Source: Sphagnum compactum | Taxonomy: Eukaryota | NCBI GenBank assembly: GCA_965153455.1 | Contig: OZ234494.1 | Span: 11,842,001-11,906,000 of the forward strand | Direction of reading: 5' to 3' | DNA length: 64,000 nucleotides | Shown: in pieces, positions 1 through 58,769 of the stretch | Numbering within the stretch: the first letter of the stretch is position 1 | Layout: every line of letters begins with the position of its first letter | Notes under the pieces: model-generated | The model's database searches: none | The model's input: the letters and a program-made list of their open reading frames with translations, nothing else | What the model was told of the DNA's origin: nothing | Position numbers and translations under genes: made by a program

Positions 1-3000
1 GCATTTTTGTAACTTTTTTGTGACATTGATTTTTTTATTTTTTATTTTTTATGTGCTTCTTGTCGCCATCTTCTCTTACACGCTCTATGTTCTTTTCCTA
101 CAACACAATTATGCAACACACTTTATCTTCTTCTTATGCAAATTTTCTAACGATCTTCATTATTTTTTTAATCTGAAGTTTTTCATTGTTGTTTCCCCTT
201 GTTTATTCATTTCTTCCATTATGTGCGAAGTGAACCACACTTTCTTTTCTTTGTTTATCATTTTCCATGCACAACGCTTTTGAGAGCCTTCTTGGCTCTA
301 TTAGTTTTTTATCCTCCATTTGATCTTAATTTGATTTTAAAAAAAATTCTATTTTCTCCTTCCCTTACATTTTGTACTCATCTTTTTTTTTTTTTTTTCA
401 TTTTGTACATTATTTTCGTGGACTGAAAAATCACTTGTTACTTCTTATGCAAAGTTGATAAAATTTTGTTTTGGAAAACTTTTGATTCATATATATATAT
501 TTTTTATTTTTTCCAGTGAAAAATGCAACATAAAAGTATAATTGGTTTTCCATTTTTCTATTTTTTTTAGAATTATGATTTCAAATTTCCAAGTGTTTTT
601 TCCCTCCATGCTTTACAATTTTCTCTTACATTGCGATGCAAGGCCTATGTTTTGCAGCTTGAGTTTTACTTATATGTTGCATAGAGCTCTGAAGAACTTG
701 AACTTGACCTGGATGCTACAATTCAGGATGTTGTGGGTTGCTTGAACTTTATTTGGACGATGCAATTCACGATGCTGCAAGTTTTGTTGTTTGGAGTTGA
801 CTTGAGTTACATATTCAATTTTTGTACTTTTACAACATCTTCATTTGTAAATGTTGGACTTGGATTTGTGTTTCATATTCATTTTAAGAGTTCAAACATT
901 TACATACTCAGATTTTTGCACTTTGAAATACATTGGGATTTAGTTTTTTTTTTCATTGTATGGGAATCTACTTTTGGAATCTGTTGTTAAAATTGGAATC
1001 TGGTTTTGGAATCTTTTGTTTAGTTTGAATTTCAAATTCAATAGATTTTGAAATTTTTATCTAAAATGAGTTAAAAGAAGATAAGAAAATCAAAAGAAAA
1101 TAAATTTTGATGTAAGTAAAAGAAAAAAAAGATTAAAATTTTAAAATTTTGAAATTTTTTTAAAAAATGAAAAAAAAAAACCTTCTAGATTTCAAAAGGC
1201 CCAATACAAGCTATACTAGACCTTCCAAAATCCGGAAGGTACAATTGACAAAAACTATAAAATTTGGACAGGCAAATGCCTTAAAAATACAAAGAAAGAA
1301 TTCGATTGGTTTTTTACGGTCATAGAAAATTGAATAGTTTTGTTTTTCCATGTGTTATGTGGAGCGATCCCTTTAACCCATGTGCAAAACCAACATCCAA
1401 CCATTGTTTTATTTTGCCACATGTGTAAGTGTTCTTTTTATTGATGGCATGGATGGGCATGTTCCAAATCTATTTCAACTCATTAAATTGTTGTTTATAT
1501 TAAACATTCTGATATTTGAGTAGTTTTTTCTTAACCACCTTTGAAAACCAATATCCATAAGTTATAACCTTTACACATGACTTGGAGTATGGTTATGTGA
1601 TATTTGTTTTAGCTTTTTATCAAGTCATTTACAATTTCAAGTATGTGTAAGTACATTTGTTCACCAACCACTTTGGTTGTGTTTGGATGCAAACAAATAT
1701 TAAGTTTAGTGATTCATGTTACTTTAAACCTATTAATATGCAATTAAACTTTAATCTTTTTTAATTAGCTATTATTTAAAAATATTTGATGTGTCTTCTT
1801 TTGAATTATTTGGTTAAATGTGGAGAAAGGTAGTTATTAGGTGAATGTTTATCACAACTTATAAAGTTTCAATCTTTTCATTTAGTATTAAATTGATGCA
1901 TGATATATTAAGGTATAATATTGATATTTTGTAATGTTAATGCCTTGCACAAGTAGTAATCGGGGGTTTGATCAAAAGGTGCATATTGAAGCCATTGTTG
2001 CAAAGTTCTCTACAACAAAATTCAATGCAAGGCTAATAGTCACAAAATAACAAATATTGAAAGCCTTTGACATGGAGTATAATAGTGAAAAATCGTTGGC
2101 TAGTGAAGAAATGGAAGAAGGGGACTAGGAACAAAACACAATTGACTTGGACAAGATGAACAATGATTTTTCAAAGGAGACACCATGTGTGGGCTTCACA
2201 TGCAAGAAAATGAACAAATCTTCCATGTAGGCATGTGTATTCCAATACAAACCTTGGAATGTTTTATGTAATACTATAATTTAATTGGTTAATGGAAAGG
2301 TTAAAATATTGACATAATTACATAAATGTTCATTTTTTTTGCAAATTTGTATTACATTTGGTAAACAAGAACTAACTTCAAATGTAATTAAAATGGCTTT
2401 GGAATCAAATATTTGCTTGTACATAATGAAACCTTGAAAATAAATAAATGAAAGAATTAAATGAACAATATTAAAAATATATTTAAGTAATGGAACCCCT
2501 TCTAGCATTACTTATTTTTTTCATTTCCTTAATTTTTTTGAAATTGCACCATTAGTTGATACCATTTGGTGAAACTTTTATCTGTTATTATTTAATTAAA
2601 GATTAGCGCTATTAATTAACATAGCCACCTTAAACTATGTTCATAATGAACACATTAGTAAACTTCCATTAAAAATATTATTTCCAAAACGTACAAAAGA
2701 GATGCCCTAAAATGGATCATCATTGAAAATACTAGAAATAAGTAACCAATGTTTTTGTAAATTGTTGAAGACGGTTTGTTAGGTGGGAGGTTACTACTTA
2801 CTACCACGGACTTTTCTGAAGACAAGTCACATGACTCCATGCGTAGTGCTAATAACAATAAAAGATTTATGTGATTACATGATTTAAATTTGTAATTTTT
2901 GTTCAATGCATTTGCTTGGTCAAACTTTCAAGTTTGCTTGCTAGTTGTGATGAAGGTTAGCCTTAGAGTTTGAGTAATTGTGCACTTCCTTTAGTATATG

Positions 3001-4741
3001 GTGGCTAACTTATTACGTAACCCCTTGATATTAGATTTTTTTTGAATTATTAATTTTCAATACATATTTTTGGTCATTACAAATTTCAACAACATGAACA
3101 TAGAATTGGCCATTCAAATTGATGTACAATCATGTGTTGAAGGATTTTTTTTTTAAAATCAACTTTTGGATTTTCTTCCTTCCCTTTTTCATAAACAGTG
3201 CAAAGTGTCAATGTGAAATATGCACAAGAATTCGTCAAAATTTGTAATGAAACAATTCTTGTAAAACACATTTCCAAAAATTTTGTTCCAAAACATCCAC
3301 TAAATTGAGATTATTTTATGTAGGATAAAAAAGTCACCCAATTGTTAATATAAATCACAATTACATTAAGATTATTTTAAGTTGTTATATTTAGATTGAG
3401 AAAGGTATTTTGAATAATTGGGAAGGATATTAAGTTTCCATATATTGGAACAAAATTCATGTCATTGTAAGAATAATTTATGGCTAGGTTGGACAAATAA
3501 CAAAAGGACACAATAAATGAACTAAAGTTCAATTAACTATTTTTATTTGCTGAAAATGTATAAGCATTGCTTGACTTCAATTAATGTTGTTAAACATATA
3601 ATAATAATTCCATGAACACATAATGACATGCTAGACATCGAAGTTTATTAGATTTAGTAAAGGCAAAATGGTTTGATTACTAAAGTTGGATTAAGTATGA
3701 AAGCTTAGTTACCATGTCACATGATGCCATGTCAAATCATAAGTGACATGATGTAAGTCTAAGTCAAATGTATTGGATATTTCAAGAATATCAAACATAT
3801 TCAAATATATAAGAAAATGATGTAAAATATTCCATGAATTTTAATGGTATATTCTTGAAATAATGATGTAAAATGATGTTGTGACATCACATCATGATAT
3901 GACATGACAAATGATGTAAAACCCTTGTGTCATGACATATTTGACAACCATGTATGAAAATGATGTTGCAAGGGGTGCAAAATGGCCGCACCTAAAGATG
4001 GAGTTTTGCCAATAATCAAATTTGCAAAACACACATTAAACAATGATGCAATGACATGGAACATGGTGCCACAATAGAGTTTCTAATGTGTTGATAGAAG
4101 TTGGTATTGCATATACATAATGTGTAAAAATTAGAGAGTTAATGTAATATTTGTTTTCACAATAAGTGAATATGTTTTGAAATCTATTATGTTTTTGGGC
4201 TTCTAAGATAGTTTAAGAGGGTAAAAATGATTTTGAGGTGTGCAAATCAATGTGGTGTTTTTGGAAATCCTACTTTAAATAAGCTTTAAATCATTTTTGA
4301 ATGAAAGCTTGTGTTTTACTAAAATCATATTTGTAATAATTGGAGAGAAAATAATGGGACAACGATTATGTGCATTAATAGGTTCTAAAAACCTTTGGTT
4401 TTTTGTTTGTTTGTTTGGTTTATTTTGTTGCTTGCTTTAAAGGTGAAAAATTGTGAACATGAAAATGAAGAAAACAAATTCTTCATGGACATGGTGGTAT
4501 ATTTCAACCATCATTTAAATTTATAAATCATGCATGCATACCTTAATCAAATCAAGGATGGAAAACAAACAGAAAAAATGTAGAGTTTTTATGAGTACAT
4601 TAAACTTCGAAACTGTATTCAGTAGGGGTATGATGGAAAAACAAAAAAATACAAATAAAAATGGCAATAAAATGGACAATGAAGTGTTGTAAGCCCTAAA
4701 ATTAAATGGTTCAATAAATCATGTCAGACGTAAGTAAGAAA

Positions 4742-6575
4742 AATGGTTTTGAATTTAGTGTGAATTATGATTAATGGAAGGTTGAAATATAATCATGTTT
4801 TGTAATTTCAAAAATAACAATTGTGAATTGAATTGATTTATGATGAGTGAGAATTGAAATAAAGTCATGTTGTGTAATTCAAAAATAGTAACATTCAAAA
4901 TAATTATGAAATGTGGTGGATTGAATTGAATTGTAACATGATATGGGGTTGTACACATTAGTTGGTTTCACACTTGTTGGAATCCCAATAAATGGTTGTC
5001 CAATCATCTATTATTTCCTTCACATAGTTGGCATGTAGCTTAACATCCACATTGCCAAACGTTAATGATCTCATTTTCTTGCAATATGAACATGTTTTTT
5101 CAAAGGGACATCCTTATGTTAAGGGACCATTCATCTTTTAAACCATGATATTATTTTGAAACCATATTATTACTAAAAGTTCAATAGAAACTGTATTCCC
5201 AAGGTAAGAGTAATGGTTTTGAGTTGAATTTAAATTGTGATTGATTAAAAGTTGAAATACAATTATGTTTTGTAATACAAAAATAACAATTGTGAGCTAG
5301 ATTGATTTGTGATGAATTGAACATTGAAGTAGAATCATGTTGTATAATCAAGAGAAGTAACATTCACATGATTATGAGTTGTGATGAATTGGACTGAACT
5401 ATAACATGAGATGGGATTGTACACATTAGTGGGCGTCACAATTTAATAATTTGAATGCCAATAAATGATGACTCAATCACCCATTACTTCCCTCACATAG
5501 TTGGCATGTAGCCAAACATTCATGTTGCCAAACACTAGTGATTTCATTTTCTTGCAAATATGAGCAAGTTTTTTTCAAAAGGGACATCCGTATGTTGGGT
5601 GACCTTTCACCTTCTAAACCATGATATTACATTGAACTATTAAAAGCTCAATAAAAACAGATTATTCCCAATACAAGAACAATGGTTTTGAAGTGAAAAT
5701 GAATTATGATTAATTGAAAGTTGAAATATAATCATGTTTTGTAATAAAAACTAACGAGTGCGAGTTGAATTGATTTGTGATGAGTTGGACATTGAAGTAG
5801 AATCATGTGTAATCAAGAAAAGTAACGTTCAAATAATTATGAGTTGAGATGGATTGAATTGAATTGTAACATGAGATGAGATTGTACACATTAATGGGTG
5901 TGACAACTTAGTTATTGAAATGCCAATAAATGGTGATTCAATCACATAGTTGGCATGCAGCCAAACATCCATTTTGCCATGTGATCTCATTAGTGATCTC
6001 ATTTCCTATAACATGAACATGTGTTTTTGAAGGGGTATCCTTATGTTAGGTGACCTTTCACTTTCTATACCATGAAAATTACTTTGAATTACTAAATGTT
6101 CAATGGAAATTGGTTATTCCCAAGGTAAGAGTAATGGTTTTGAATTGAGCATGGATTGCGATTGATTGAAAGTTGAAATATAATCATGTTTTGTATCTAA
6201 AAATAACAATTGTGAGTTGAATTGAGCATTGAAGTACAACCATGTGTAATCAAAAGAAGTAACGGTTCAAATAAATGTGAGTTGTGATGGATTGAAATGA
6301 ATTGTAATGTGAGATGAGATTGTACACATTAGTAGGTGGCACAATTTAATTATTGGAATGCTAATAAATGACCATTCAACCACCCCTTATTTCCCTCACA
6401 TGGTTGGCATGCAACCAAGCATCCATGTTGCCAAACATTAATGATCTCATTTTCCTTTAGTTCGAAAAGGTTTTTTTCAAAGGGGCATCCCTTTGTTAGG
6501 TGATTAACTTTCACCTTCTAGGGCACGAGATTAACTTAAACTATCAAAATTTCAATGGAAATTACTTATTCTCGA
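4742..6575. repeat. Diverged tandem array of four units of about 450-470 bp
   Basis: AATGGTTTTGA recurs near 4742, 5213, 5681 and 6133. Each unit contains TTGTACACATTA, GTTGGCATG and a TGATCTCATTT-like block in the same order. Confidence 0.88.
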
Positions 6576-8054
6576 AAAGGATTGTCACATTTCATTTTTC
6601 AACAATCATTTTACTTGTAACCTTACTTGGTTGATTTGAAAACATCGATTATCTTTTTCATTTAAACTTTGCTATTAAATAATTCATTTGTAACACCCAC
6701 TATTGAATAGGTTTGACATTTAGGCATTGATGATTTGGAAAAAAAAAGAAACATGTTAAAAAGTTTGAAGGTGCACTAATTAATTGGAGTAGAATAAACT
6801 TATTGTCCAAATATATGACTAAGTTAAATTAAGAAACAAATAATAACATTAGATGAAAGAAAAGAAAGAAAAGAAAAATATGAAAAGTGAACAAAAGGCA
6901 TTGAAAAACGTTAGACCATTTAAGTTTAAATTGAATGAACATTTTTCATGAAAACAAATTCATACGATAAAAATATTGGTGTTTGTTTGTCTAAGTCCTT
7001 TTGTATATATGTATTTACCTATATACCATAGTTTAGGGTTAGTTTCCACAAGGTCAAAACATATATATATATATATATATATATTCTAATGACAATGTTT
7101 CATCAAATCTAGTTTATGTAGGATGGATATTTTGGTGATTGTCATTATGATAATTCCAAAGTCATTCCGAATTATAATTAATCATAAATCAAAATTCATT
7201 TTCAGAATCTTTTTTTTTGTTATTTGTTTTGCACCCTTTTTAGACAAACCCTTTCAATTGTTTTTTTTTTTTTTTTTTTGGGTTTGTTTGTATCTTGTTG
7301 TGAACTTTTCTAATGAATCAAACTTTCATTGGCATTTTGCTTAGCAAATAAAAAATGTAAAAAACTATTAATAGAACAAAATGAATGAAATTTACAATTT
7401 TTTTTTAAAAGACAAAATTGATTACAACAAATTATTATGTCCACACAAAATAATTTGATCATCGTCATTGGTAGTGCAAAACAACATGAAGCCCAAATTT
7501 GAAACTATTATTATTTTATGATCTACTATGAAATTGTCATATGAAAGAATAAAATTATTTAGAACATAGTCTACCATATGTATGATGGTTTTCAACACGT
7601 TAACTTCATATTTTCATGAAAATTAAATTCTCTATTTTAAAGACTATTTAATGAAAAAAATATTTATTTTGCATTTTACGAGGTTTAAAAAATTAATGGT
7701 GAACAATAACCAACTTTCCCCCTTCATTATGATAATCAATTAAAAAATCAACAAGGGACAAAACCATAGACAAGATTAAAATAATAATGAACTCTACCGA
7801 TGAGATAACACGATTCAAGATTGAAAAAATGGGAATTTTGGGAAATTTTCCATAATGTGATTTTCACTATTTTTTCTTTCATTTGGGTGGAAAAAATTGC
7901 CAAAATTGCGATATCACAAAATTGGAAAAAAATAAAAATCCTTTGCATGCAACATGGTTAAGTAATTTGATTGCAAAATGAATCAAAATGATATAAATAA
8001 TAAAAACAAATAGCAGCCTTTTAGTTAGGTCTTTGGCTATATATATATATATAA

Positions 8055-8826
8055 CTAGGGGGGAACTAACCAAGGGTTTACAACAATTAAGGTAGTAGGT
8101 TACAAAAGTGGGATGAATAGATAGATGGATGGATGGATGGATGAATGAATGAATGAAATGGGATGAAGGAAGTCCCAATAAGTGACCTAACCGGCTTGTT
8201 GTGTTTGGTTATAACTTAAATCTAAGTGATTAATTAATCAAATTAATTAATTAATTAATTAATTTTGGTGTGATACCCAACTGGTACCCACTGAGTATAA
8301 TTACCAGAAAATTTATTATTATTATTATTATTATTATTTTTTTTTAGCAGGTCTTTACGCTCGTAATTTTACCCTTACACTTTCCTCTGGGCAGGGGGCA
8401 ACCAAACAGAAAGAAATTGAACTAGGGGGGAACCTAAGTAAGGGGTTGACAACAACAAAGGAAGAGGGCACGAAAGTGGGGATGGAAGGATGGAATGAAT
8501 GAATGAAGTTCCCATCAAGTGAGAGCTATAACCAGCTTATTGTGTGTGCTTCATAAGTGGGCACCAAAGTGGGGATGGAAGGATGGAATGAATGAAGAAG
8601 TCCCCATCAAGTGGGCTAAGCAGCTTATTTTTGTGTGTGGTTAATAAGTGGGTACGAAAGTGGGGATGGAAGGATGGAATGAATGAAGAAGTCCCATCAA
8701 GTGAAGGTAAAGCAGCAGCAGCTTATTTTTGTGTGTGGTTAATAAGTGGGCACGAAAGTGGGGATGGATTATCGGATTATGAAATGAGCTGAATGAAAGT
8801 GGCAACAACGTGACCTAACCAGCTTG
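8055..8826. repeat. Diverged tandem repeat of about 90 bp upstream of DCL1
   Basis: AAAGTGGGGATGGA recurs near 8473, 8566, 8657 and 8755, mostly followed by AGGATGGAATGAATGAA..GTCCCATCAAGTG. A more diverged copy lies near 8105. Confidence 0.85.
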
Positions 8827-8880: not shown

Positions 8881-9177
8881 CCGGATGTAAAACAACACGC
8901 AACAGATGTAAATTGGATGTTAAACAAACATTCAACGGATGTAAAACAACACGCAACGGATGTAAAACAATACTCAACGGACGTAAAACATTGGAATGGA
9001 TGTAGAAAAACACTGAACGGATGTAAAGCAACCTCAACGGATGTAAAACAACAACACTCCAACGGATGTAAAACAATACTCAACGGATGTAAAACAATGA
9101 ATAGATGTAAAACCACACTGAACGGATGTAAAGCAACACTCAACGGATGTAAAACATTCAATGGATGTAAAGCAACT
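8881..9177. repeat. Minisatellite of about 15 units of roughly 18-24 bp with core AACGGATGTAAA
   Basis: Directly visible repeated core. It explains the spurious repetitive ORFs at 8843-9459. Confidence 0.92.
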
Positions 9178-9418
9178 CTTATCTTCGGCGACCGGCGGTC
9201 GCCGCAGTTGGCTCGAAGGAGGCGGGCGGAGAGGGAGGTGCGACGAGACACGAGGAAGAGGAGCTTCGCACAAACGCTCTTCAGCTCTCGCACGCACCCC
9301 TCCTCCTCCTTGTGCTCGCTCTCGCCTTCTCACGCAAGCCTGGATCTCCAGGCCTTGCCTTGTGCCTGTGTTTTTGTTGTTGTTGTTGCTGCGGAGGAGG
9401 AGGAGGAGGAGGAGCTAC

Positions 9419-12400
9419 ATGGATTGGAGATGGCAACAAGAACAACAAACCCACAATAACAACAATGATAGAGGAGGAACTAGAAGGATGCGTCCTCTGG
9501 TGGACGAGCAGGGAGGAGGAGGTGCTGCTGTCGGTGGTGCTCGTCCTCCGGGAGGAGGAGGAGGAGGAGGAGGAGGAGAACAACAACAACAACAGCGAGC
9601 AGGAACTACTGCTAGGACGCGAGCCAGTGATGAGGACGATGGCGGTTCCGAGCGCTGGAAGAGAGTGAAGGTAGACGGAAGAGAGAACGGGTTGCGTGGG
9701 AATTGGGAGTTGGATTTTTATAGGGATCGCGCTGCTTGGGAAGTTGGGAATTCGCAATTGGGAGAAGGCAGAGCGACGACGATGGCGGTTGGGATGATGG
9801 GTGGTGGTGGTGGGCAGGTGGTGAGAGAGGATTCAGCTGGACGGAGTCGAGAAGCTGAGAGGTTTAGTGGTGGAGTGGGGAGGGGACAAGAGTTGGAGAG
9901 GAGAGGAGGAGGAGGACGAGGAGGAGGTAGCAGGAGGATGCGGTCGCCGGAAGAAGTGGTGCTGCAACATGAGTCTGAGAGAGATGAGAGTAGCAGACGC
10001 AAGAGGTTGAAGCAAGAAGAAGGGCTGGGGAACGGCAGCAGTGGGAGAGGGAGAGAAATGGGATTTGCAAGTGAGAGAGAGAGAGACAGAGAGAATGGAC
10101 GTGATCTTCGCATGAGGGATTATGAGAGAAGAGGTCCTCATCTCGAAAGGGATGGATTCAGAGGAGGAGGAGAAAGAACGGTTTTCAGGCCGCCTCCTCC
10201 TCGACTCAACAGAGAGGGAGACAGCAGAGAGGGAGGAGGAGGAGAGTTCCAAAGAGACCGATCGAAAATCAGGGAGAAAGAGAGAGTAGGAGGAGAGCCA
10301 CGGAACGGGGAGCAGAAGAAGAAGATGGAGCAGCCACCAGCAGCAGCGGCAGCAGCAGCACCACCAGCCAAAGAGAGAAGGGGCGAGGAACAAGCTCGGA
10401 AGTACCAGCTGGAGGTTTTGGAACAAGCCAAGGTGAAGAACACCATTGCTTTTCTAGAGACAGGTGCAGGGAAGACTCTCATAGCAGTGCTGCTCATGAA
10501 GCACAAGTATGAAACCATGAGGCAACAGAATCAACGCATGCTGGCTGTTTTCCTTGTACCCAAGGTTCCCCTTGTTTACCAGGTAAAAAAAATTCTCTCT
10601 CTTCTCTTTCAAAGAAAAAGATCATCATCATTGTGAGTTCAACCCACCCATTCGACCGAAAGCTGTCACATGACATCCATGAAATTGTCACCCTTCAGAT
10701 CCTTACTCTCATCATCCCACATTCAGCAGAGACGGAGAAGAGAATTCTTCTCGTGCAGATAGATTGAAGAAAAGGTTTTTTTTTTTTTTTGCAGTTTGTT
10801 TTTCTGGGTTTGGGATTTTTTGCTGATGGTTTCTCTCTTTTTTGGCCTCTCTCCTTTCGGGTTTGTGTGTGTGTGATTGTGACTGACTGACTGTTTGCAA
10901 TGTGGATGGCAGCAAGCGGAGGTGATTCGTGAAGGCACCGGATACCATGTTGGCCATTACTGCGGAGAAATGGGTCAAGATTTCTGGGATGCAAGAAGAT
11001 GGCAACGGGAGTTTGATACGAAAGATGTGCGTTAAAGATGTTTCCCCATTTGAAAAGTCTGATTAAATGTTCAGGATCACCGTTATTGATCACTGTTTGC
11101 TGACATCCATTTCAGTCTTCTTATAAGTCTTACATTTGATGAGGGGACTTGCTAAATCATCATCTTCTTACAAGTCTCTTTTTGATAATGGGACTTGCTG
11201 AATCATCATCATCTTCTTCCATGGCCCGAGCAGGAGAATCTGAAAAAGAACCAGGAATGCATGTGAGAAAGAGGAGGTGATGTTGTTGTTGTTGATGGGG
11301 GAGCATGTGTGAGTGTGTGCAGGTTCTGGTGATGACTGCGCAGATATTGTTGAACATTCTGCGGCATAGCATCATACGAATGGAGGCTATTCACTTACTG
11401 ATTCTTGATGAGTGCCACCATGCAGTGAAGAAGCATCCATATTCATTGGTCATGTCGGAATTCTACCACATCACAGCCAAGGAGAAACGACCATGTGTCT
11501 TTGGCATGACTGCATCCCCTGTCAATCTCAAAGGTACGCGGGCAGGTTTTGAACTGTTTTTGAGGTGATCCGATCACATCCATCGAGTGTCAGTCAAAAT
11601 GAAGAGCTCAATTTGGGAAGTTGAACGTCTAGGAAGAAACAGTCTGCTGCTGTTTTTGTGGATTTTGGCAGCTGATTAGTGTTTCGAGGACAATATTGGA
11701 AATCACCAAGTTGACAATTGTGGTACTGGGCATCATTTGAGCTGTGCAGGAGTATCGAATCAAGAAGATTGTGCAATCAAAATTCGTAATCTGGAGAGCA
11801 AGCTGGACTCGATTGTGTGCACAATCAAGGATCGAAAGGAGCTGGAGAAGCATGTGCCAATGCCCTCTGAGACAATGGTGGAGTATGATAAACCGGTACT
11901 GCTCTTCTCATTACGGGAGCAAGTGAAGCGGATGGAAGTAGCTGTGGAGGAAACTGCGAATTCAAGTCACAAACGCAGCAAGTGGCGCTTCATGGGTGCT
12001 CGTGATGCTGGTTCGAAAGAAGAGTTGCGGCTGGTGTATGGTGTGTCTGAGAGGACCGAGAGTGATGGAGCAGCAAGCCTGGTCCAGAAGCTGAGGGCTA
12101 TAATATATGCTCTTGATGAGCTTGGTCAGTGGTGTGCTTACAAGGTTAGGACATATCCCTTGTTGCCCTGGAGGACAGAAGAGAGTTGTTGCTGTGTCCT
12201 GTTCATTCCAGGGACTTTCAGAATCTGGAAGTTGTTGACAAATTGTCCACAGTTTTTCCAGGATGGTTTTCTAGAGCTTTCAGAGTGTGAATGAACGGGA
12301 TGATAGATCCTGGCACAAGACCCAACACATGATGGATGATGGATGGTGTCTAATTGTTTTTGTGTGGATTTGCAGGTGGCGCTGACATTTCTTACGAGTT

Positions 12401-15400
12401 TGCGGAACGATGAGCGGGTCAATCATCAGCTGGACGTAAAGTTCCAGGAATCCTATCTGAGGAAAGTGTGCATTCTACTGCGATGCAATTTGAGTGAAGG
12501 GGCTGTGGGGAGTAATAAAGATGCAGCTGATATTCTTGGAAGCCAGGGTGATGAGGGTGAGAAGCTGGAAGAGCCTATGGATGTTGAGGAAGGGGAGCTT
12601 CCTGATACACAAGGTTTGGGCACCCTTGATGCCCTTTCAGCTTCTCTTGCACTTGATATATCTTTTAGTGGCAAGCTCATTTGCTCTATGCTCTAAATCT
12701 ATGCACTAATTCTGTGATTGCAGTGGTTTCGGGAGGGGAGCATGTGGATGAGATTCTGGGAGCAGCAGTAGCAGATGGAAAAGTGACACCTAAGGTGCAG
12801 TCACTGATCAAGATTTTGCTTCGCTATCAGCACACTGACGATTTCCGAGCAATTATTTTTGTGGAGCGTGTAGTCGTGGCTCAGATCCTTCCCAAGGTAC
12901 ATAACAAGAGTTTGCCAGGTCTTGGATTTTTTTTCCAATGTAGTTTTCTTTGCCAGTTGTGGGAGTGAGAAAATGAGTCATGATTCTGTTATGTTGTCCA
13001 GTAGAGGAGGATTTCACCTGCTGCTCTGCAGAGAAGAATCCCATCAGGCCAACATGAGGTTGAGATGACTTGTGGTGACTAAATGTGGTGGTTTTTTGCA
13101 ATTGGGTGTGGGGGTTTTTTTTTTTTGCAGGTTTTTGCAGAGTTGCCATCACTGAAGTTCGTGAAATGTGCCTGTTTGATAGGGCATAACAACAATCAGG
13201 ACATGCGGACAAGGCAGATGCAGGAGACGATCTCCAAGTTCCGAGATGGACGGGTGTGCTATTCTCTTGGTTTAGTGTGAGCTTTCCTGGGGTGTAATTG
13301 ATTGTTGTGGGTGGTGGTTATCTGACAAAAGCCTGATAAAGCTTCTCTGGATTACTAGGTGGTCTTTGATGACATAGGCCTTAACTCTCAATGTTTTTGC
13401 TTGAGTTAACGCCAGTGTGATCAGTGATGACCTAGTGGCCCACCTGGGTACTACTTTTTCCTCTATGCAAAAAAGACATCTGCGTGGAAGGCTTCTGAGT
13501 TTCTGGGTATCCAGGTTTGCCCCTTCATCATGTGGTGGGTTCTTTTGTGTGGCATCCAAGCTTTTGTCATCAATGGCAGGTTTGATATGTCGGATGCCAT
13601 AATCTGACTTCATATCTTTTTTTCCACCTGTCAGAGCAAACCATATGCCTCTTGTGTATTGGTGTGGTTTTTCTGCAACAATTGGGTCTGTGTGGTCCAG
13701 TTTGCAGCACACAAATCTCTTGATTTTCTAAAACCCTGAATGTTGTCAGGAATTGCCCCCAATTTGCTTAAGCTCCTCTCTCACACTTCCTTGGTTGATG
13801 AAGGAATTTGCATGAAAAAAGGTGCCTTAAAAAGACACATTGTGCATGATGAATCAGGAGTTGCTATGTTTCTGTGAGGTTATGTATCAAGCTGAATTTC
13901 CGATTTGCAGTTTTGGCGATTGTTCCCTTGGTGGGTCCTGAGGTTGAAAGTTGGTTGAACCTAGGTGACATTGCTGGTGGCAACAAGCGTGGCAGAGGAG
14001 GGATTAGACATTCGCCAATGTAATGTCGTGATCCGGTTTGATCTTGCCAAGACTGTGCTGGCCTACATTCAGTCACGTGGTCGTGCGCGCAAGCCTGGCT
14101 CAGATTATATACTGATGCTTGAAAGGTAATGTGCCAGATGATGTCTTCTGGTGCTGCCTCTACTCTTTTAACATATTGTTGATGGGTTGCTGCACATGAA
14201 CGCTTCTGTATTCTCATTGGAATTTGACCCCTCTGCTAAGCACTGGTAGAACCTCCTGAACCTTAGGCATAGTTATATGGTTTACAAAGGCAAGACTCTG
14301 GATGTATGTAGTGGTCATGTAGAGCTTTCTGATTGGATAATCGCAATTGAGATTTGAGATTGGCTATGTGTTGTGAGATGATGTTGTCGAATAAAAGCAT
14401 GCACAGCTGCCCTTGTAGTAAACCCTTATGTCTCTTCTAAGTCTGGAAAATGCTTGGTGTCTGGTTTTGCTTGGGCAGGGGGAATTTGACACATGAGGCT
14501 TTCTTACGCAATGCACGCAACAGTGAAGAGACTCTTCGGAAGGAAGCTATTGAAAGAACTGACATTGGGTCTTCAAGGGAGGCTGCAATACTGGCCTCCA
14601 TTCAAGGTGTGGAGGGTGAGATTTATCAGGTGCCTGCCACGGGGGCAGTGGTGAGCTTGAATTCTGCCGTTGGTCTTGTTCACTTCTACTGCTCTCAGCT
14701 TCCCAGTGACAGGTTTGTAGTCTGACTGATTTTATCCCATCTTACTTGACCTGCTTGCATTTCTGAGTGGAACTATTTGTGCATGCTTTTATTTTTTTAC
14801 CATTGACGCCTTTGATCAGCTATGTTTCTTGAGTGCTAGCCATCACCATGACCCAGTCTTCCTGTGTCTTCTGGAAATGGAACAGGTACTCGATCCTGCG
14901 CCCTGAGTTCATAATGCACCAGCATGAGAAAGAAGGGGGTGTCGTCAAGTACTCATGCAAGCTGCAGCTGCCTTGCAATGCCCCCCTGGAGACAGTTGAG
15001 GGGCCTATCTGTAGTTCCATCCGGGGTGCACAGCAGGTGAACCTGAACTAAGGATCTCATTCTGTCATAGCCTGTATTCCTGAATCAAGGAGGCCCATAC
15101 AATAACCAATTATATGGTTTTTTCTGAGGAAATTCAAGTAATTGAGGAAAGATTGTCATTTCCATCAAAAAAAGAGAGTTAGCAATAGGGTTTATTACTC
15201 AAGTTACCCGTGGGAAGTGATAAGAAAATACAAGTATATATCTGTTTCTTTTGTTTTCGAAAGTGGTGTAAAGGCTGTTTGAGCTAAGTGTTGCTAAGTC
15301 TTTTGTGCCACATTTGGCCAATGTGGAATATGGGTTTTGCAGGCGGTCTGTTTGGATGCATGCAAGAAACTCCATGCTATGGGTGCGTTCACAGACATGC

Positions 15401-18400
15401 TTTTACCAGACAAGGGAAGTGGTGAAGAGGCAGCTAAAGTAGATGGCAATGAAGAGGGGGAGCCTCTTCCTGGAACTGCTCGACACAGGGAGTACTACCC
15501 TGAAGGCATTGCTGAGATCCTGAAGGTGATGGACATATTGAAATTCTCTCTTTCAGGAGTTTGGGGAAGTTTTTCCTTTCTTGCACATTTTTGCCATTGA
15601 ATCTCAACTTTTATGAGGATGAGATTCTGACCTGAATGAGGCAGGACTTTGCTCATGTATCTAGAATCCATGTGTCACTGTGTCTTATGTTTTATCACCA
15701 CAATTGAATGATGAATGTGATAGGAGGAGCTCATTTGGTGTTTGTTGACAGGGTGATTGGATATTAGCTGGAAATGATTGGGAGACAAACAAAATGAGCA
15801 AGGTGTCGCTTTTTGTTTACAAGGTTGAGTGTGAAAATATTGGCTTCTCCAAGGACCCACTTCTGACTGAAACATCAAACTATGCAATTCTTTTTGGCCA
15901 AGAGCTGAATTCAGAGGTGAGTACTTTACTGTTTGGGTGATGTGCTTCTCTCAAAGCCATTTTATGCTCTTTGTTAACTGAAATCTCAAGACTATGTGAA
16001 GCTCTGTAGGACAATGGCACAATGTTCATGAAAAGCCTCATGATATGGAACTGTGACTTGGAGGAACTTCAAGGCAGTAGCTTATGAGTTTGTGTTTGTG
16101 GTTTCATATGGCACCTTGCAGGTGCTAACAATGAGCATGGATCTATTTGTGGCAAGGACCATGACCACAAGGGCATCTCTCGCCTTTTGTGGGACCATTG
16201 AGATGAATATGAGTGAGGTATTGAGCTGCTGACAGCTTAAGCAATTTTTCTTGGTAGCTTGAAGGACCTATGAAGTAAGGCCAAGAAGTTGGTTGATATA
16301 GCAAAAGTTTCAGTCTGACCCATTCTTGTCTTGAAAAAGCCTGGCTGGATTGCTTTATTTGTTGTGGGTGTTGGTTCTGCAGTTGAATCTGATCAAGAGT
16401 TTTCATGTGAGGCTCATGAGCATTGTCCTGGACGTGGATGTGGAGCCAGCCACAACTCCATGGGACCCAGTGAAGGCTTATCTTTTTGCACCCATCTTGG
16501 AAAAACCTTCTGATGCAGCTGCAAGTATCCTGGATTGGTCACTAATACGAGGAACAGTCACTACAGACTCTTGGAACAATCCTCTACAGCGTGCACGACC
16601 TGATGTGTACTTGGGGACAGATGAGCGTGCTCTTGGTGGCGACCGAAGAGAGTATGGGTTCGGAAAGCTACGCTATGGTTTGGCCTTTGGACAAAAGGCA
16701 CATCCAACTTATGGGATCCGAGGAGCCGTTGCCCAGTTTGATGTCGTTAGAGCAACTGGGTTACTGCCTATTCAAGATGTCCTAGAAACCGAAAAAGTGC
16801 AGGAAGTGGCTCCTGAGGGGAAGCTTTTCTTGGCCGATGGTCTTGTTGACACTGAAGGATTGGTTGGCAAAATTGTTACAGCAGTTCATTCAGGGAAAAG
16901 GTTTTATGTGGATTCAATACGCATGGACATGAATGCAGATAGCTCATTTCCTCGAAAAGATGGCTACTTGGGTCCCTTAGAGTATACCTCATATGCCGAC
17001 TACTACAAGCAAAAGTAAGTATATATGTGGGAACTGTCTGTATGTGCATCCTGAGAAAGAACTTTGTGGGTATTGAACTTGTTGCACTGGTGACTATGGA
17101 AGTGTATGCATTTATCACCAAGTGTTGCCTCCTTGAAATTGGGTATATGGTTGGCTGGTCTCTATGTGTTTGTTGTTTGTAGCTCAGGTTTTTAGGGTTT
17201 TAGTGTTTAGGATGGGCTGTGGCTTCTTATTTTGAGGTTGAAGACAGAATTGATGTCTGGTGAGGGATGCATGAATTGGGGTGCAGATATGGAGTTGAGT
17301 TAGTCTGTAAAAAGCAACCTCTGCTCAGAGGCAGGGGAGTTTCTCACTGCAAGAATCTTCTTTCACCTCGCTTTGAAACTGCTGAGGGTATGTTGTTCTT
17401 CTTGAGCTTGAAATGTGAATCAATTGGGTTAGAGAAAATGATTTCTGTTTTAGTGTAAGGTTTTTGATTGGTCTACTGTGTATAGCTGAAGTTGCGAAAG
17501 TTTGTAATAGATTCATTCGGAGGATGTGTGAATCCTAGTGAAATCTTTGCAGGTGGGACAACCAGTTCACTAGAGGCGTTAGACAAGACATATTATGTCA
17601 TGCTGCCACCAGAATTGTGCTTAGTGCATCCGCTTCCAGGACCCTTGGTGCGGGGAGCACAGCGTCTTCCCTCTGTGATGAGGCGAGTGGAGAGTATGCT
17701 GCTAGCAATCCAGCTCAAGCATGAGATTGCATATCCCATTCCTGCTATTAAGGTCAAAAACTACTTGCACCTATGTGTTAACAACTATGACAGAAATGTT
17801 TGTGAGACTGCAGAAGAGAACAGAACTATTGAGGATTTGGCTATTGACATGGTTGTGTCTTCCTACACTCACAACTTATCTGCTGTGCTGTGCAGGTGCT
17901 TGAGGCACTGACAGCAGCTTCTTGTCAGGAAACTTTCAGCTATGAACGAGCAGAACTGCTTGGTGATGCATACTTGAAATGGGTGGTGAGTCGAAGGTTG
18001 TTTCTAAAGTTTCCAAGCAAACATGAAGGGCAGCTGACACGCATGCGACAGCAGACTGTCAGTAACTCTGTGCTCTACCAATATGCCTTAGAGAAGGGGC
18101 TTCAAAGTTACATTCAAGCAGATCGGTTTGCTCCGTCACGATGGGCAGCACCCGGTGTGCCTCCTGTGTTTGATGAGGATACAAAGGATGGGGAAGAGCT
18201 AGACAAACGGAAACTGCCTACCGAAGAAGAGAAGAGAAAAGCTGAACAAGAGGAACGGGAGGAAGAAGAAGAGGAAGGAGAGGAAGGAGAGGTGGAAACA
18301 GTTGTAGAAGTGGTGGATGATGATGATGCAAGCAACATGGAGGATGGAGAGATTGAGGGTGATGCAAGTGCCTATCGGGTACTTTCGAGTAAGACATTGG

Positions 18401-20363
18401 CAGATGTGGTTGAAGCTTTCATTGGTATCTACTATGTGGAAGGAGGCCAACCTGCGGCTACCCATTTGATGAACTGGATAGGGATTCCTGTTGAATTTGA
18501 CACCATAGATGGAGAACAGGCACAGGCAGGTTGTCAAGTTCCTGAGACGGTGTTGCGAAGCATTGATTTCACAGCAATTGAAAGTTATGTTGGCCACCAG
18601 TTTCGGGAGCGGAGTTTGTTGGTGGAGGCTATAACACATGCCTCCCGTCCATCTTCAGGAGTGCCTTGTTATCAACGGCTCGAGTTTGTCGGGGATGCAG
18701 TCTTGGATCACCTCATCACCAAATATCTTTTCTTCAGCTATACCGACCTGCCTCCTGGACGGCTCACAGACTTAAGAGCTGCAGCTGTGAATAATGAGAA
18801 TTTTGCCCGTGTTTCAGTGAAGCATAAATTTCACCTCCATTTGCGTCATGGTTCTAGTGCGCTGGAGACTCAGGTAATTTTGCTGCAAGTTTGTGGGTTG
18901 GGAATCTGTCTTAAACTAATGCACCCAAATCTCAGAAATGGATGTTGTGGATTGTGAAGCAGTATCAAGTATCATCTCAGACAGTATTTGAGGCAGTTTT
19001 TTTGAACTATGATATGTGTTAGATGTTCAAGTATTGAGTTTTGTAGGAATATGACATATTTTGTTTCCAGATTCTGCTTTGTGGTTTGAGTGAGGCATGT
19101 TTGTAGATTTGCAAAAGTTTGAGAAGTAATGGGACTCTGTGTATCTCCCGAAGTGTCCCAGTGATTCCATTTCACCTGTGTGTAAGATCATTTGTTTGAC
19201 AGTTGACAGCTGATTGCTTGCAGATCCGTGATTTTGTGAAAGACATTCAGACTGAGCTTGATAAGCCTGGAGTGAATTCTTTTGGGCTCGGAGATTTCAA
19301 GGCTCCAAAGGTGCTTGGGGATATTTTGGAGTCCATAGCCGGTGCTCTTTTCCTGGACACAGGCCTGGACACCAATAAAGTTTGGGAGGTGAGTTTGATT
19401 TTTTTTTCAAGCCTCTTCTCTCATCGTTTCTGTCCAGCTCTTCTGGCAATTTTGTTGATCTACCAACCAGGTTACAAGTTGCATCTTATGTCATAAAGTT
19501 AACTGCTGTGTTGTGGAATTTAGGTTTATGATAACCTTTGCCTTCTTTGTTTCCTGGCCAACAGGTGTTTGAGCCACTTCTACAACCAATGGTGACACCA
19601 GAAACATTACCCATGCATCCAGTGCGTGAACTGCAAGAACGCTGCCAGCAGCAAGCAGAGGGTCTGGAGTACAAGGCCACGCGAGCAGGCAATGTGGCGA
19701 CTGTGGAGGTCTATGTAGATGGGGTGCAGATTGGCTCAGCTCAAAATGCACAGAAGAAAATGGCTCAGAAGTTGGCTGCGCGCAATGCACTCGTGATTTT
19801 GAAGGAGAAGGAGGTGATCAAAGAGCAAGCTGCAAAGGATGCTGCCGGTGAAGCTGGGGATGCCAACAATGGGAAGGCCAAAAAAAATGGGAATGCCCCC
19901 TTCACACGACAAGCACTGAATGACATCTGCTTGAAAAGACAATGGCCAATGCCACAGTACAAGTACATTTTTTTTCTGGCCTGAATTCTACTTTGTTCTA
20001 TTCTCTTATCCATGATCAGATGGGTACAGGATCAAATGTACGTTTTTGGTTTTTGTGTCAATAAAATTCCTTAACTCATCTTCTTAGTGGATCAGATTGC
20101 ATTTCTGCTCATGATGCATTGCTGCAGTATTCTGGTTAGAGTAGGAAGAGTGGGAAGTAGTGATTTTTAAACAGGCCCAATTTCCTTACAGGTGTGCTGC
20201 AGAAGGTGGACCAGCGCATGCTAAGAGATTTACATATTCAGTGCGAGTGCACACCACTGACAAGGGGTGGACAGAGGAATGTGTTGGAGAACCAATGCCA
20301 AGTGTGAAGAAAGCTAAGGACTCAGCTGCAGTGCTATTGTTGCAGCTCTTGAAACGCGGGTAA
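9419..20363 (+). CDS. DCL1: Dicer-like 1 endoribonuclease, 20 coding exons, about 2017 aa
   Basis: GT-AG exons: 9419-10582, 10913-11026, 11323-11533, 11750-12144, 12376-12613, 12724-12896, 13131-13253, 13965-14125, 14479-14712, 14886-15036, 15343-15525, 15752-15916, 16122-16217, 16383-17014, 17287-17387, 17553-17752, 17896-18873, 19224-19388, 19565-19962, 20192-20363. Total 6054 nt with continuous frame. Motifs: helicase [24 protein letters not shown] and QSRGRAR; DUF283; PAZ; RNase IIIa ERAELLGD; RNase IIIb QRLEFVGD; two dsRBDs. Start at ATG 9419 (MDWRWQ) is inferred. Confidence 0.96.
13348..13442 (+). ncRNA. Putative intronic miRNA precursor hairpin in DCL1 intron 7 (MIR1047-like position)
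   Basis: Arm 13348-13387 pairs with arm 13403-13442 with no bulges: 34 of 40 positions paired (5 G:U), 15-nt loop. A 21/21-nt duplex with 2-nt 3' overhangs fits at 13354-13374 and 13418-13438. Confidence 0.8.
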
Positions 20364-32760: not shown

Positions 32761-34034
32761 ATTAGATACCCGAAAGAAAAAATCAGACTAAAGAACCGTC
32801 CCATTTGGTGGCGGTTCTCAGGCACAAGCGGGCCGGCTCTTTCATGACCTGACATTCATCACTTGTCAGTTGTTCCTCTGGTGGCGGTTCTTTCGACAAA
32901 ATGATGACCGGAACTGCCCACCAGAGGAACCAACTGAACTCACAACCAGAGCAGGTAGGTTGTGAGTCGCGACCAGTGTGGGGGCGGGTATTTGATTTTT
33001 GTAATACCCATCAGTTCTGGGGCATTTGAAAAAATTCGGAATCAAAGACCCTTCGGTTCTGGGTATTTGAAAATTTTCGGGATCAAAAAAGAACCGATGA
33101 TGGGTGGTGGTCGCGGTATTTGCACTCTGATTCAACGAACTGTCGGTTCCGGGCATTTATAAACCTTCAAAGAACCATCGAGTTTCACGAAACGAGCCGA
33201 CAAAGACCCGACAGCTTGAAGGTGGTCATTTGATTTTTTTGAGAACCATGATTATATATAATAATCCAGTATTTTGATTTTTGATAACTGCAATTGTATA
33301 TCAAAACCAGGCGCATTTGATTTTGTCGATAATCAGGATTATCAACTTTGATACCCGGATTGATACCCAGCAGGGGTTTGATGCAGTTTCTAATACCTGT
33401 CTGACTCTGGTTGTGACTAGTGGTGTGCGTGTAAGTGTCAATAGTTGTATATATAGCGTGTAAATCTTGTGTAAATGTTAAATGATTTACACTTCTGCGT
33501 CCAAACTTTTTACACTGTTAGCCTGTGTATAATGTCTTTTACACTTACACAAGGCCATTGTAAATATATTTGTCAAATACACTTACACAGCCCTATGTAA
33601 ATGTTCGACAAGGTGACCCAGGTAAATATGTTAATACCAGTGTTGGGTGAGTACCCAGTTTGGCAGGATAGAAACGGTCGGTTCTGGTTTGAGTTGCGTC
33701 AAAACTGGGAATAAATGAAATCTCCTTGAAATTTTACTTTGGGCAGGTCTTAACAACATGGCATCACCCTAAGATGATTTAGCCAGATTTGGCTACATAC
33801 TAGATATGAAAGTTTGAAAAAAAACCATAATCCTCTTATGTATTTTTACTTGTTGGAACTTATCATAAAAAATTTGGTGATTTGGATTTTATTTTTATTT
33901 CGAAATCTGGTAAATTTGGGTCCATTATTTCCATGAAAAATCCTTGAAATCATCATTTTTTCAGGTCAAAACTTTGGCAAAATTTGACCCAAAAATAAAT
34001 AAATGCTGGCTGTAAACCCATTCCAAGGGTTTCG

Positions 34035-57593: not shown

Positions 57594-58769
57594 ATGGACG
57601 GACCCATCAATAACTACACACCGAGAAATATTCTCATCACTGGTGCAGCAGGGTTCATAGCATCGCATGTGGCCAATCGGCTGATCCACAAATACCCACA
57701 GTACAAGCTGGTAGTGTTGGACAAGCTAGACTACTGTTCAAACTTGAACAATCTGGTGCCTTCCAAGTCCACCCACAATTTCAAGTTCGTGAAAGGAGAC
57801 ATCGGAAGTGCAGATCTGGTGAACTACTTGCTCATCACTGAACACATCGACACTATCATGCATTTCGCTGCACAAACCCACGTTGACAACTCCTTCGGCA
57901 ATAGCTTCGAGTTTACAAAGAACAACATCTACGGGACTCATGTGCTACTGGAGGCTTGCAAAGTGGCAGGTACCATCAAACGTTTTATTCACGTGAGTAC
58001 TGATGAGGTCTACGGTGAGACCGAAGCGGATGCTATAGTCGGAAACCATGAGGCATCGCAACTGCTTCCTACAAACCCTTACTCTGCTACCAAGGCCGGT
58101 GCGGAGATGCTTGTGATGGCATATGGTCGCTCCTACGGTTTGCCTATCATCACCACAAGAGGCAACAACGTTTACGGACCTAATCAGTTTCCGGAGAAAC
58201 TGATTCCTAAGTTCATGCTCTTGGCAATGCAAGGGAAGCCACTACCGATCCATGGAGATGGATCAAATGTACGCAGCTATCTGTACTGCGAAGACGTAGC
58301 GGAAGCTTTTGATGTGGTGCTGCACAAGGGAATCGTGGGTCATGTGTACAACATCGGCACCAAAAAGGAACGACGTGTCTTGGATGTTGCCAAGGACATC
58401 ATCGCCTTGTTCAATCTGGATTCCGGCAAAGCCATTCAGTTCGTGGACAATCGACCTTTCAACGATCAACGCTACTATCTGGACGACGCCAAGCTGAAGG
58501 CATTAGGCTGGCGTGAACGTACCTCATGGGAAGAAGGCTTGCGCAAAACAATGCAGTGGTATAAAAGCAATCCCAATTGGTGGGGCGATGTTTCACGAGC
58601 TTTGGTTCCTCATCCTCGCATGCTTACCATCGCGGGATCTGAGAAGTTGGGAGAATTGCAAAAGGGAGAAGAAGACGATGATGAAGCCGCCATTCCGCCA
58701 CCTCGCAAGCTCTATTCACCACGCACCAACGGTGCTGCCGAGACTCATCTCATCAAAATGCGTATGTAA
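57594..58769 (+). CDS. RHM-like UDP-glucose 4,6-dehydratase (N-terminal half of rhamnose synthase only), intronless, 391 aa
   Basis: ILITGAAGFIASH, VLDKLDYCS, HFAAQTHVDNSF, STDEVYG, YSATK, NVYGPNQFPEKLIP and WWGDVS.AL.PHP match the plant RHM dehydratase domain. The ORF stops in the linker region. Confidence 0.9.
   Translation: MDGPINNYTPRNILITGAAGFIASHVANRLIHKYPQYKLVVLDKLDYCSNLNNLVPSKSTHNFKFVKGDIGSADLVNYLLITEHIDTIMHFAAQTHVDNSFGNSFEFTKNNIYGTHVLLEACKVAGTIKRFIHVSTDEVYGETEADAIVGNHEASQLLPTNPYSATKAGAEMLVMAYGRSYGLPIITTRGNNVYGPNQFPEKLIPKFMLLAMQGKPLPIHGDGSNVRSYLYCEDVAEAFDVVLHKGIVGHVYNIGTKKERRVLDVAKDIIALFNLDSGKAIQFVDNRPFNDQRYYLDDAKLKALGWRERTSWEEGLRKTMQWYKSNPNWWGDVSRALVPHPRMLTIAGSEKLGELQKGEEDDDEAAIPPPRKLYSPRTNGAAETHLIKMRM

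What the first reader, a model, noticed from the sequence alone, without database searches (positions are those of the whole stretch)
13254..13964. miRNA-like hairpin inside DCL1's own intron 7: candidate Dicer autoregulatory circuit
Seen in sequence: intron 7 (711 bp) is twice as long as any other DCL1 intron (next longest 353 bp). It contains a symmetric foldback at 13348-13442 with 34 of 40 positions paired and no bulges. A canonical duplex can be drawn between ACUAGGUGGUCUUUGAUGACA (13354-13374) and UGAUCAGUGAUGACCUAGUGG (13418-13438, 5' U), with 2-nt 3' overhangs and 3 mismatches. Established: Physcomitrium DCL1a carries MIR1047 in intron 7 and Arabidopsis DCL1 carries MIR838 in intron 14, where processing by DCL1 competes with splicing and truncates its own pre-mRNA. 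Inference: this locus has the same negative-feedback device. It would be unannotated in a protein-only annotation and would imply deep conservation within mosses. I cannot verify sequence homology to MIR1047, and the exact duplex register is a prediction.
Basis: partly seen in the sequence, partly recalled or inferred. Interest (0 to 1): 0.92.

Follow-up and report, generated by a model that had tools for sequence, protein, structure and literature searches.

The report
Hairpin in a moss Dicer intron
A moss gene for the enzyme that makes microRNAs carries a conserved microRNA-like hairpin in its own seventh intron, the same intron where the model moss Physcomitrium has a known self-regulating microRNA, so this feedback device may be old in mosses.

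Summary
Window 13254-13964 is a GT..AG intron, the 7th coding intron and the longest (711 nt, next 353), of a DCL1 orthologue (about 9419-20363, + strand). At 13348-13442 it holds an unbranched foldback with 34 of 40 stem positions paired (MFE -46.4 kcal/mol, z -5.75, 0 of 200 shuffles as good). The sense strand folds better than the antisense strand (-35.7).

The organism is not Physcomitrium. Its DCL1 is about 80% identical to Physcomitrium and Ceratodon DCL1 and branches as their sister.

In a metagenome relative (L005, 97% identical) the first 273 nt of the intron have no substitutions (8.6 expected, P about 2e-4). The only change there is a 6-nt deletion in the terminal loop. DNA depth is single-copy, so it is not a repeat family. 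One metatranscriptome contig carries the whole hairpin joined to exon 8.

Not tested: small RNAs, cleavage ends, and sequence homology to ppt-MIR1047, whose sequence I could not obtain.

Best reading (0.55): an intronic DCL1 substrate that gives negative feedback, the positional counterpart of MIR1047. It is a new member of a known kind.

The parts
9419..20363 (+). DCL1 orthologue, about 20 coding exons, from the candidate ATG to the stop codon
   Evidence: tblastn with Physcomitrium (P0005) and Ceratodon (P0001) DCL1. ATG and stop positions. The RNase III exon is 80-81% identical to moss and liverwort DCL1.
13129..13253 (+). Coding exon 7 (helicase C-terminal domain)
   Evidence: RNA joint 12894/13129 in X15. 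Translation.
13254..13964 (+). Coding intron 7, GT..AG, 711 nt, the longest in the gene. Read-through from exon 7 meets a stop after 9 codons.
13254..13526 (+). Segment of intron 7 with no substitutions against relative L005. It is part of the longest substitution-free run (13116-13526, 411 nt) in the 6150-nt alignment.
   Evidence: 0 substitutions where 8.6 are expected from the rate in the other introns (66 of 2107), P about 1.7e-4.
13348..13442 (+). miRNA-like foldback, 34 of 40 stem positions paired. Weaker pairs extend it to 13341-13449. 8 of the 41 pairs are G:U.
   Evidence: The antisense strand folds at only -35.7 kcal/mol.
13354..13374 (+). The register is unverified; a register starting near 13363 is equally plausible.
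   Evidence: Pair table. No small-RNA data.
13418..13438 (+). The register is unverified.
   Evidence: Pair table. No small-RNA data.
13388..13402 (+). Apical loop region. Relative L005 lacks 13392-13397 and still folds as the same hairpin.
   Evidence: -45.2 kcal/mol, z -5.54.
13965..14123 (+). Coding exon 8 (helicase motif VI). RNA contig record 19 joins it to the intron and the hairpin without a break (13333-14126).

Best explanation
The foldback at 13348-13442 is an intronic pri-miRNA-like substrate inside the pre-mRNA of the enzyme that would dice it. It is the positional counterpart, in a moss outside the Ceratodon-Physcomitrium clade, of ppt-MIR1047 in intron 7 of PpDCL1a.

Proposed mechanism: while intron 7 is still unspliced, DCL1 protein recognises the roughly 40-bp imperfect stem and excises a ~21-nt duplex. 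This cuts the pre-mRNA between exons 7 and 8. More DCL1 therefore means fewer productive DCL1 mRNAs, which is negative feedback. Transcripts that simply retain the intron are also unproductive, because read-through meets a stop after 9 codons.

Shown here: the structure, its strand bias, its single-copy state, its constraint among close relatives, its place in coding intron 7 of a DCL1 orthologue, and its presence in RNA joined to exon 8.

Inferred: dicing by DCL1, small-RNA output, competition with splicing, and common descent with MIR1047.
For: - Structure: -46.4 kcal/mol, z -5.75, 0 of 200 shuffles as good. 34 of 40 stem positions are paired, with only symmetric 1x1 mismatches.
- Strand: 8 of 41 pairs are G:U, and the antisense strand folds 10.7 kcal/mol worse. 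This fits an RNA read in the sense of DCL1.
- Host gene: the RNase III exon is 81% identical to Ceratodon DCL1 and 80% to Physcomitrium, Marchantia and Riccia DCL1. The window branches as sister to Ceratodon + Physcomitrium, support 89/91.
- Position: it is the 7th coding intron. Papers place MIR1047 in intron 7 of PpDCL1a (passages). Intron positions around it match those of a seed-plant-like DCL1 (L002), so they are old.
- Constraint: against L005 (97% identical) there are 0 substitutions in 13254-13526 where 8.6 are expected (P about 1.7e-4). This segment lies in the longest substitution-free run of the 6150-nt alignment. The one change is a 6-nt deletion in the terminal loop, and the hairpin still folds.
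- Not a repeat: there is 1 match in the 64-kb window at up to 3 mismatches. DNA-run depth over it is flat (about 30, 6 and 36), while real repeats in introns 9 and 10 reach 860-7400.
- RNA: in metatranscriptome X15, an 815-nt contig covers 13333-14126, the whole hairpin plus exon 8. The bins inside introns 4 and 8 have depth 0, so genomic DNA does not explain the contig. 6 of the 24 listed runs are RNA runs and hold 57-67% of the intron's sampled words.
- Precedent: deleting MIR1047 in Physcomitrium raises PpDCL1a expression and causes salt hypersensitivity (passages citing Arif 2022).
Against: - No small-RNA reads, degradome data or RACE ends could be examined, so processing is wholly inferred.
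- Constraint rests on one relative at about 3% divergence. For the 95-nt hairpin alone P is only 0.049. No compensatory change was seen because the stems are identical.
- For the four laid runs, 88 difference rows were not shown. Their identity over the hairpin therefore cannot be asserted.
- The RNA contig carries the hairpin intact, and contigs show neither strand nor ends.
- A contig that retains intron 6 also exists in X15 (12869-13158), so unspliced pre-mRNA in general is present there.
- No Rfam family reaches its gathering score. The best match is 20 bits against a threshold of 100, and the matches are to unrelated miRNA families by shape only.
- No convincing target site exists in DCL1 or elsewhere in the window. 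There is one hit at score 4, at 57826-57846.
- Homology to MIR1047 is untested.
- The seed-plant-like L002 has only a ~90-nt AT-rich intron at this position, with no hairpin evident by eye; it was not folded.
Confidence: 0.55

Rival explanations
1. The hairpin works the same way (DCL1 dices its own intron) but arose independently of MIR1047, as MIR838 did in Arabidopsis intron 14. That would be a third convergent case.
For: Passages state that MIR838 and MIR1047 differ in sequence and position and arose independently, so convergence has precedent. In the passages I read, miR1047 as a DCL1-intron miRNA is named only for Physcomitrium (in the label appears as a hit or candidate name in other organisms). 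No Rfam family links the two.
Against: It lies in the same ordinal intron out of about 19. That is unlikely by chance if intron positions are conserved, as they are with L002.
Confidence: 0.2
2. It is a conserved structured element of the intron that tunes the splicing or retention of intron 7, for example by slowing splicing, and is not diced into a miRNA.
For: The substitution-free segment (13254-13526) is wider than the hairpin and includes a second, weaker fold at 13436-13530 (z -2.68). The RNA contig holds the hairpin uncut and joined to exon 8. Retention gives an early stop.
Against: The stem has the length, the symmetric mismatches and the lack of branching that are typical of plant miRNA precursors. 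The Physcomitrium precedent in the same intron is a processed miRNA.
Confidence: 0.13
3. It is a young, neutral inverted repeat with no function. It looks conserved only because the available relatives are very close.
For: All relatives with the intron differ by only 1-3%. For the hairpin alone P is 0.049.
Against: A 273-nt intronic stretch has no substitutions where 8.6 are expected, and the only indel falls in the loop. The 8 G:U pairs and the strand-biased stability fit selection on the RNA, not a recent DNA duplication, which would give perfect arms.
Confidence: 0.09
4. It is a MITE or another transposon-derived inverted repeat inserted in the intron.
For: Introns 9 and 10 of the same gene do carry high-copy repeats (depth 860-7400).
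Against: Over the hairpin the DNA depth is single-copy in 3 of 3 DNA runs. The window holds only 1 match at up to 3 mismatches. No terminal repeats or direct-repeat flanks were reported.
Confidence: 0.03

Closest known systems
ppt-MIR1047 in intron 7 of Physcomitrium patens DCL1a (Axtell 2007 and Arif 2022, seen only through citing passages)
   Same: A miRNA-type foldback on the sense strand inside intron 7 of the miRNA-producing Dicer gene of a moss. The proposed effect is competition between dicing and splicing, which gives negative feedback.
   Different: The lineage differs: the DCL1 protein is only about 80% identical and branches as sister to Ceratodon + Physcomitrium. Sequence relatedness of the hairpins is untested. 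There is no small-RNA, deletion or stress-phenotype evidence here.
ath-MIR838 in intron 14 of Arabidopsis DCL1
   Same: An intronic hairpin in DCL1's own pre-mRNA. Its excision is reported to yield truncated, non-functional transcripts (passages).
   Different: It sits in a different intron (14 against 7). The papers state that it is unrelated in sequence and of independent origin.
miR162 targeting of DCL1 mRNA in flowering plants
   Same: Negative feedback on DCL1 through the miRNA pathway.
   Different: It acts in trans by target cleavage of the mature mRNA. Here no target site for either arm was found in the DCL1 exons, so any feedback would act in cis through processing.
Drosha cleavage of hairpins in DGCR8 mRNA in animals
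   Same: The processing enzyme cuts a hairpin in the transcript of a component of its own complex, which gives homeostasis.
   Different: The hairpins lie in the exon or 5' UTR of a partner gene, in animals. The proteins and substrate rules are unrelated to plant DCL1.

Membership tests
Plant MIRNA locus (community annotation criteria, recalled) | Single unbranched foldback under 300 nt. The miRNA/miRNA* duplex has at most 5 mismatched positions, at most 3 of them in asymmetric bulges. | tested here: met
   Foldback of 95-111 nt. The proposed duplex has 3 symmetric mismatches and no bulge.
Plant MIRNA locus (community annotation criteria, recalled) | Precise accumulation of a ~21-nt miRNA and miRNA* with 2-nt 3' overhangs in independent small-RNA libraries. 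| not testable with these tools
   All listed runs are kept as contigs of longer reads. No small-RNA reads could be laid.
Plant MIRNA locus (community annotation criteria, recalled) | Dependence on DCL1. | not testable with these tools
   This needs mutant or knock-down data.
MIR1047 | Lies in intron 7 of the moss DCL1a gene, on the sense strand. | tested here: met
   It is the 7th coding intron of the DCL1 orthologue and favours the sense strand. That it is the same homologous intron as in PpDCL1a is inferred from conserved intron positions and from the ordinal number given in papers. The Physcomitrium gene itself was not seen.
MIR1047 | Mature arms similar in sequence to ppt-miR1047-5p and -3p. 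| not testable with these tools
   The reference sequence is in no held paper text. No Rfam row is named MIR1047, and no eukaryote genome is held.
DCL1 self-regulation by an intronic miRNA (MIR838 / MIR1047 type) | The host gene is the DCL1-clade Dicer. | tested here: met
   Best matches are DCL1 proteins of mosses, liverworts and vascular plants at 67-81% identity. Tree.
DCL1 self-regulation by an intronic miRNA (MIR838 / MIR1047 type) | The hairpin-bearing intron is present in RNA, that is, in an unspliced precursor available for dicing. | tested here: met
   X15 contig record 19 covers 13333-14126, while the bins inside introns 4 and 8 have depth 0. This is one run laid, kept as contigs only.
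DCL1 self-regulation by an intronic miRNA (MIR838 / MIR1047 type) | Truncated host transcripts that end or start at the hairpin, and host mRNA that rises when the hairpin is removed. | not testable with these tools
   Contigs cannot show RNA ends. No genetics is available.
Any curated Rfam RNA family | Score at or above the family's gathering threshold. | tested here: not met
   0 matches at gathering score in the whole window. The best match over the hairpin is 20 bits against a threshold of 100.

The most novel reading that the evidence does not exclude
The hairpin is a true orthologue of MIR1047, kept in intron 7 of DCL1 since the common ancestor of this early-branching moss lineage and the Bryopsida. 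DCL1 self-dicing would then be an ancient, continuously maintained homeostat of the moss miRNA pathway. It would also be among the oldest known intronic miRNA and host-gene pairs in plants.
Probability: 0.4. Interest if true: 0.7.

Novelty: new member of a known kind. Interest (0 to 1): 0.5.

Why it matters
DCL1 dosage sets the output of the whole miRNA pathway. In Physcomitrium the intron-7 miRNA loop is reported to be needed for salt adaptation (passages). The papers I could read describe it as specific to Physcomitrium and as convergent with Arabidopsis MIR838.

A conserved, transcribed, single-copy hairpin in the same intron of DCL1, in a moss that branches outside the Ceratodon-Physcomitrium pair, makes one question directly testable: is this feedback an old moss invention, or does it arise repeatedly? 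It also flags a functional non-coding element that a protein-only annotation would miss.

Tried and rejected
- Getting the ppt-MIR1047 sequence. Arif 2022 and Axtell 2007, PMC1955733, are not held. The search for ppt-miR1047 / miR1047-5p / -3p found 3 papers, and no passage I read prints the sequence. Supplements are closed and may hold it.
- Own genome: none is held. I therefore could not search for genome-wide copies, paralogues (DCL1b) or trans targets.
- Earlier findings of this scan: three look-ups returned nothing.
- Metagenome scan with exon 8 gave 5 loci. L005 is a close relative and was used. L002 is a seed-plant-like DCL1 with a ~90-nt intron and no hairpin evident by eye; it was not folded. 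L001 holds only 137 nt of the intron. L003 and L004 match at 75% over part of the exon, look like other Dicers, and were not analysed.
- Read laying negatives. No spliced joint across intron 7 was listed in X15, although six neighbouring introns show joints, and the first ~79 nt of the intron may lack cover. Contigs show presence, not absence, so I draw nothing from this.
- Differences in the laid runs. No difference rows are listed between 13085 and 13817 for the four runs, but 88 rows were not shown, so I do not count this as conservation.
- In-window target scan: one hit at score 4 (57826-57846), which is about what chance would give.
- Second fold at 13436-13530: z -2.68, with 3 of 200 shuffles as good. 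It is not compelling.
- Literature on a DCL1-intron hairpin in other mosses: the listed papers show no such report, but only 20 of 286 and 12 of 478 papers were listed.

Full report

Yes. The stretch 13254-13964 starts with GT and ends with AG. It separates two exons whose translation runs through the helicase C-terminal domain of a Dicer, including motif VI.

tblastn with Physcomitrium DCL1 (P0005) and Ceratodon DCL1 (P0001) lays about 20 coding blocks on the + strand, from the ATG at 9419 to the stop at 20361-20363. Counting from the first coding exon, this is intron 7.

RNA contig joints in run X15 fix the neighbouring introns at 216, 231, 110, 234, 353 and 306 nt. The remaining intron lengths come from tblastn gaps and none exceeds 353.

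The foldback folds at -46.4 kcal/mol for 13340-13450. Shuffles average -27.7 (sd 3.25), giving z -5.75, and 0 of 200 fold as well. It also forms inside the fold of the whole intron.

The pair table gives 34 pairs among the 40 positions 13348-13387 / 13403-13442, with six symmetric 1x1 mismatches and no bulge. With weaker basal and apical pairs the total is 41 pairs.

Any long stem allows such a drawing. A register starting near 13363, about 15-17 bp above the 13345-13347 / 13443-13445 internal loop, fits recalled plant processing rules equally well.

**2. What is the host, and whose genome is it?**

The RNase III exon (325 aa) is 81% identical to Ceratodon purpureus DCL1 and 80% identical to Physcomitrium patens "Dicer-like 1" (B3SRP9), Marchantia and Riccia. 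Identity is lower to vascular plants. 386 proteins reached E <= 1e-30 among 8000 scored candidates, and 120 were listed.

I built a tree of 12 rows that I chose from those hits. It puts the window as sister to Ceratodon + Physcomitrium, with support 89/91.

So the window is not Physcomitrium and the hairpin is not ppt-MIR1047 itself. It comes from a moss outside that pair.

The runs that hold the intron are coded organisms plus "moss metagenome" and "plant metagenome" libraries. My guess of a peat-moss-like lineage is inference only.

**3. Evidence on the hairpin itself**

*(a) Strand.* 8 of the 41 pairs are G:U. The antisense strand folds at only -35.7 kcal/mol. The structure therefore belongs to the DCL1 sense transcript.

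*(b) Copy number.* A 23-nt arm probe finds 1 match in the 64-kb window at up to 3 mismatches. The three DNA runs have flat depth over the hairpin (about 30, 6 and 36), while repeats in introns 9 and 10 reach 860-7400. It is not a MITE family.

*(c) Constraint.* Metagenome locus L005 aligns to window 10956-17105 at 97%.
- There are 137 substitutions in 6150 nt.
- The nine other introns covered by the L005 alignment (coding introns 2-6 and 8-11) have 66 substitutions in 2107 nt (0.031 per nt). The exons have 30 in 2146.
- The first 273 nt of intron 7 have none where 8.6 are expected (P about 1.7e-4).
- The last 438 nt of intron 7 have 15 where 13.7 are expected.
- The run 13116-13526 is the longest substitution-free run in the alignment.
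- The only change in that run is a 6-nt deletion at 13392-13397, in the terminal loop.
- L005's hairpin still folds at -45.2 kcal/mol, z -5.54.

A variable loop with fixed arms is what miRNA precursors show. But this is one relative at about 3% divergence. For the 95-nt hairpin alone P is 0.049, and no compensatory change could be seen.

*(d) RNA.* 6 of the 24 listed runs are RNA runs, from 5 studies, and hold 57-67% of the intron's sampled words. I laid one of them, X15.
- An 815-nt contig covers 13333-14126 without a break. That is the whole hairpin, the rest of the intron and exon 8.
- Six neighbouring introns show spliced joints.
- The bins inside introns 4 and 8 have depth 0, so genomic DNA in the library does not explain the contig.

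Caveats:
- These are contigs, so there is no strand, no ends and no levels.
- A contig retaining intron 6 also exists (12869-13158).
- The lack of a listed joint across intron 7 proves nothing.

*(e) Consequence of retention.* Read-through from exon 7 meets a stop after 9 codons.

*(f) Targets.* Among 43 candidate 21-mers from both arms, the only site in the window scoring <= 4 is at 57826-57846. None lies in DCL1. If there is feedback, it acts in cis through processing.

**4. Comparison with what is known**

Passages in PMC3565333, PMC4429486, PMC4053937, PMC5426797, PMC10721683, PMC11799827 and PMC10379455 state three things:
- The MIR1047 precursor lies in intron 7 of PpDCL1a.
- Its processing is thought to compete with splicing.
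- Deleting it raises PpDCL1a expression and causes salt hypersensitivity.

They also say that MIR838 in Arabidopsis intron 14 is unrelated in sequence and position. I saw neither primary paper, Axtell 2007 or Arif 2022.

The ordinal intron matches. Intron positions around it are shared even with a seed-plant-like DCL1 (L002). Its intron at this place is about 90 nt, AT-rich and shows no hairpin by eye; I did not fold it. By parsimony the Physcomitrium intron 7 is therefore the same intron. That step is inference.

Sequence homology of the hairpins could not be tested. No Rfam family reaches its threshold, and the weak rows are shape-only matches to unrelated miRNA families.

**5. Verdict**

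The structure is real, strand-specific, single-copy, constrained among close relatives and present in RNA. It sits exactly where the one known moss precedent sits.

The most likely reading is an intronic DCL1 substrate that gives negative feedback (0.55). Within that reading, common descent with MIR1047 is more likely than convergence.

The rivals are:
- independent origin with the same function (0.20);
- a splicing or retention element that is not diced (0.13);
- a neutral young inverted repeat (0.09);
- a transposon remnant (0.03).

It is a new member of a known kind. It is interesting mainly because it would push the DCL1 self-dicing loop back to an early moss ancestor.

The decisive data are small-RNA reads, transcript ends and an alignment with ppt-MIR1047.

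Noticed in passing
window 32866-32937 (+): A second miRNA-like hairpin with a near-perfect stem of about 31 bp: -41.8 kcal/mol, z -6.89, 0 of 200 shuffles as good. No Rfam family comes near its threshold. Its context and strand were not examined.
   Followed up: partly
window 14716-14849 and 15118-15251: Stretches inside DCL1 introns 9 and 10 have depths of about 860-7400 in DNA runs where the flanks have about 30. Many contigs end there with loose ends. These are high-copy repeats, probably transposon fragments.
   Followed up: no
window 8462-8768 and 8915-9171: Tandem arrays just upstream of the DCL1 start: a 91-nt unit in 3.3 copies and a 21-nt unit in 11.6 copies.
   Followed up: no
window 9180-9320: A GC-rich stretch just upstream of the candidate ATG (9419) folds very strongly on both strands, down to -59 kcal/mol on the minus strand. 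It may be 5' UTR structure or a composition effect.
   Followed up: no
window 13436-13530 (+): A second, weaker fold lies directly after the main hairpin, inside the substitution-free segment: -33.2 kcal/mol, z -2.68, 3 of 200 shuffles as good.
   Followed up: partly
window 12869-13158: RNA run X15 holds a contig that retains intron 6 (depth 21.7) alongside the spliced exon 6-7 joint (depth 194).
   Followed up: no
L002 2893-2983: A metagenome contig encodes a seed-plant-like DCL1. Its introns sit at the same positions, but the intron here is only ~90 nt, AT-rich and shows no hairpin by eye; it was not folded.
   Followed up: partly
window 12540-12660 (+): The coding exon 5 region folds unusually well for an exon (-43.6 kcal/mol in a 110-nt window).
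   Followed up: no
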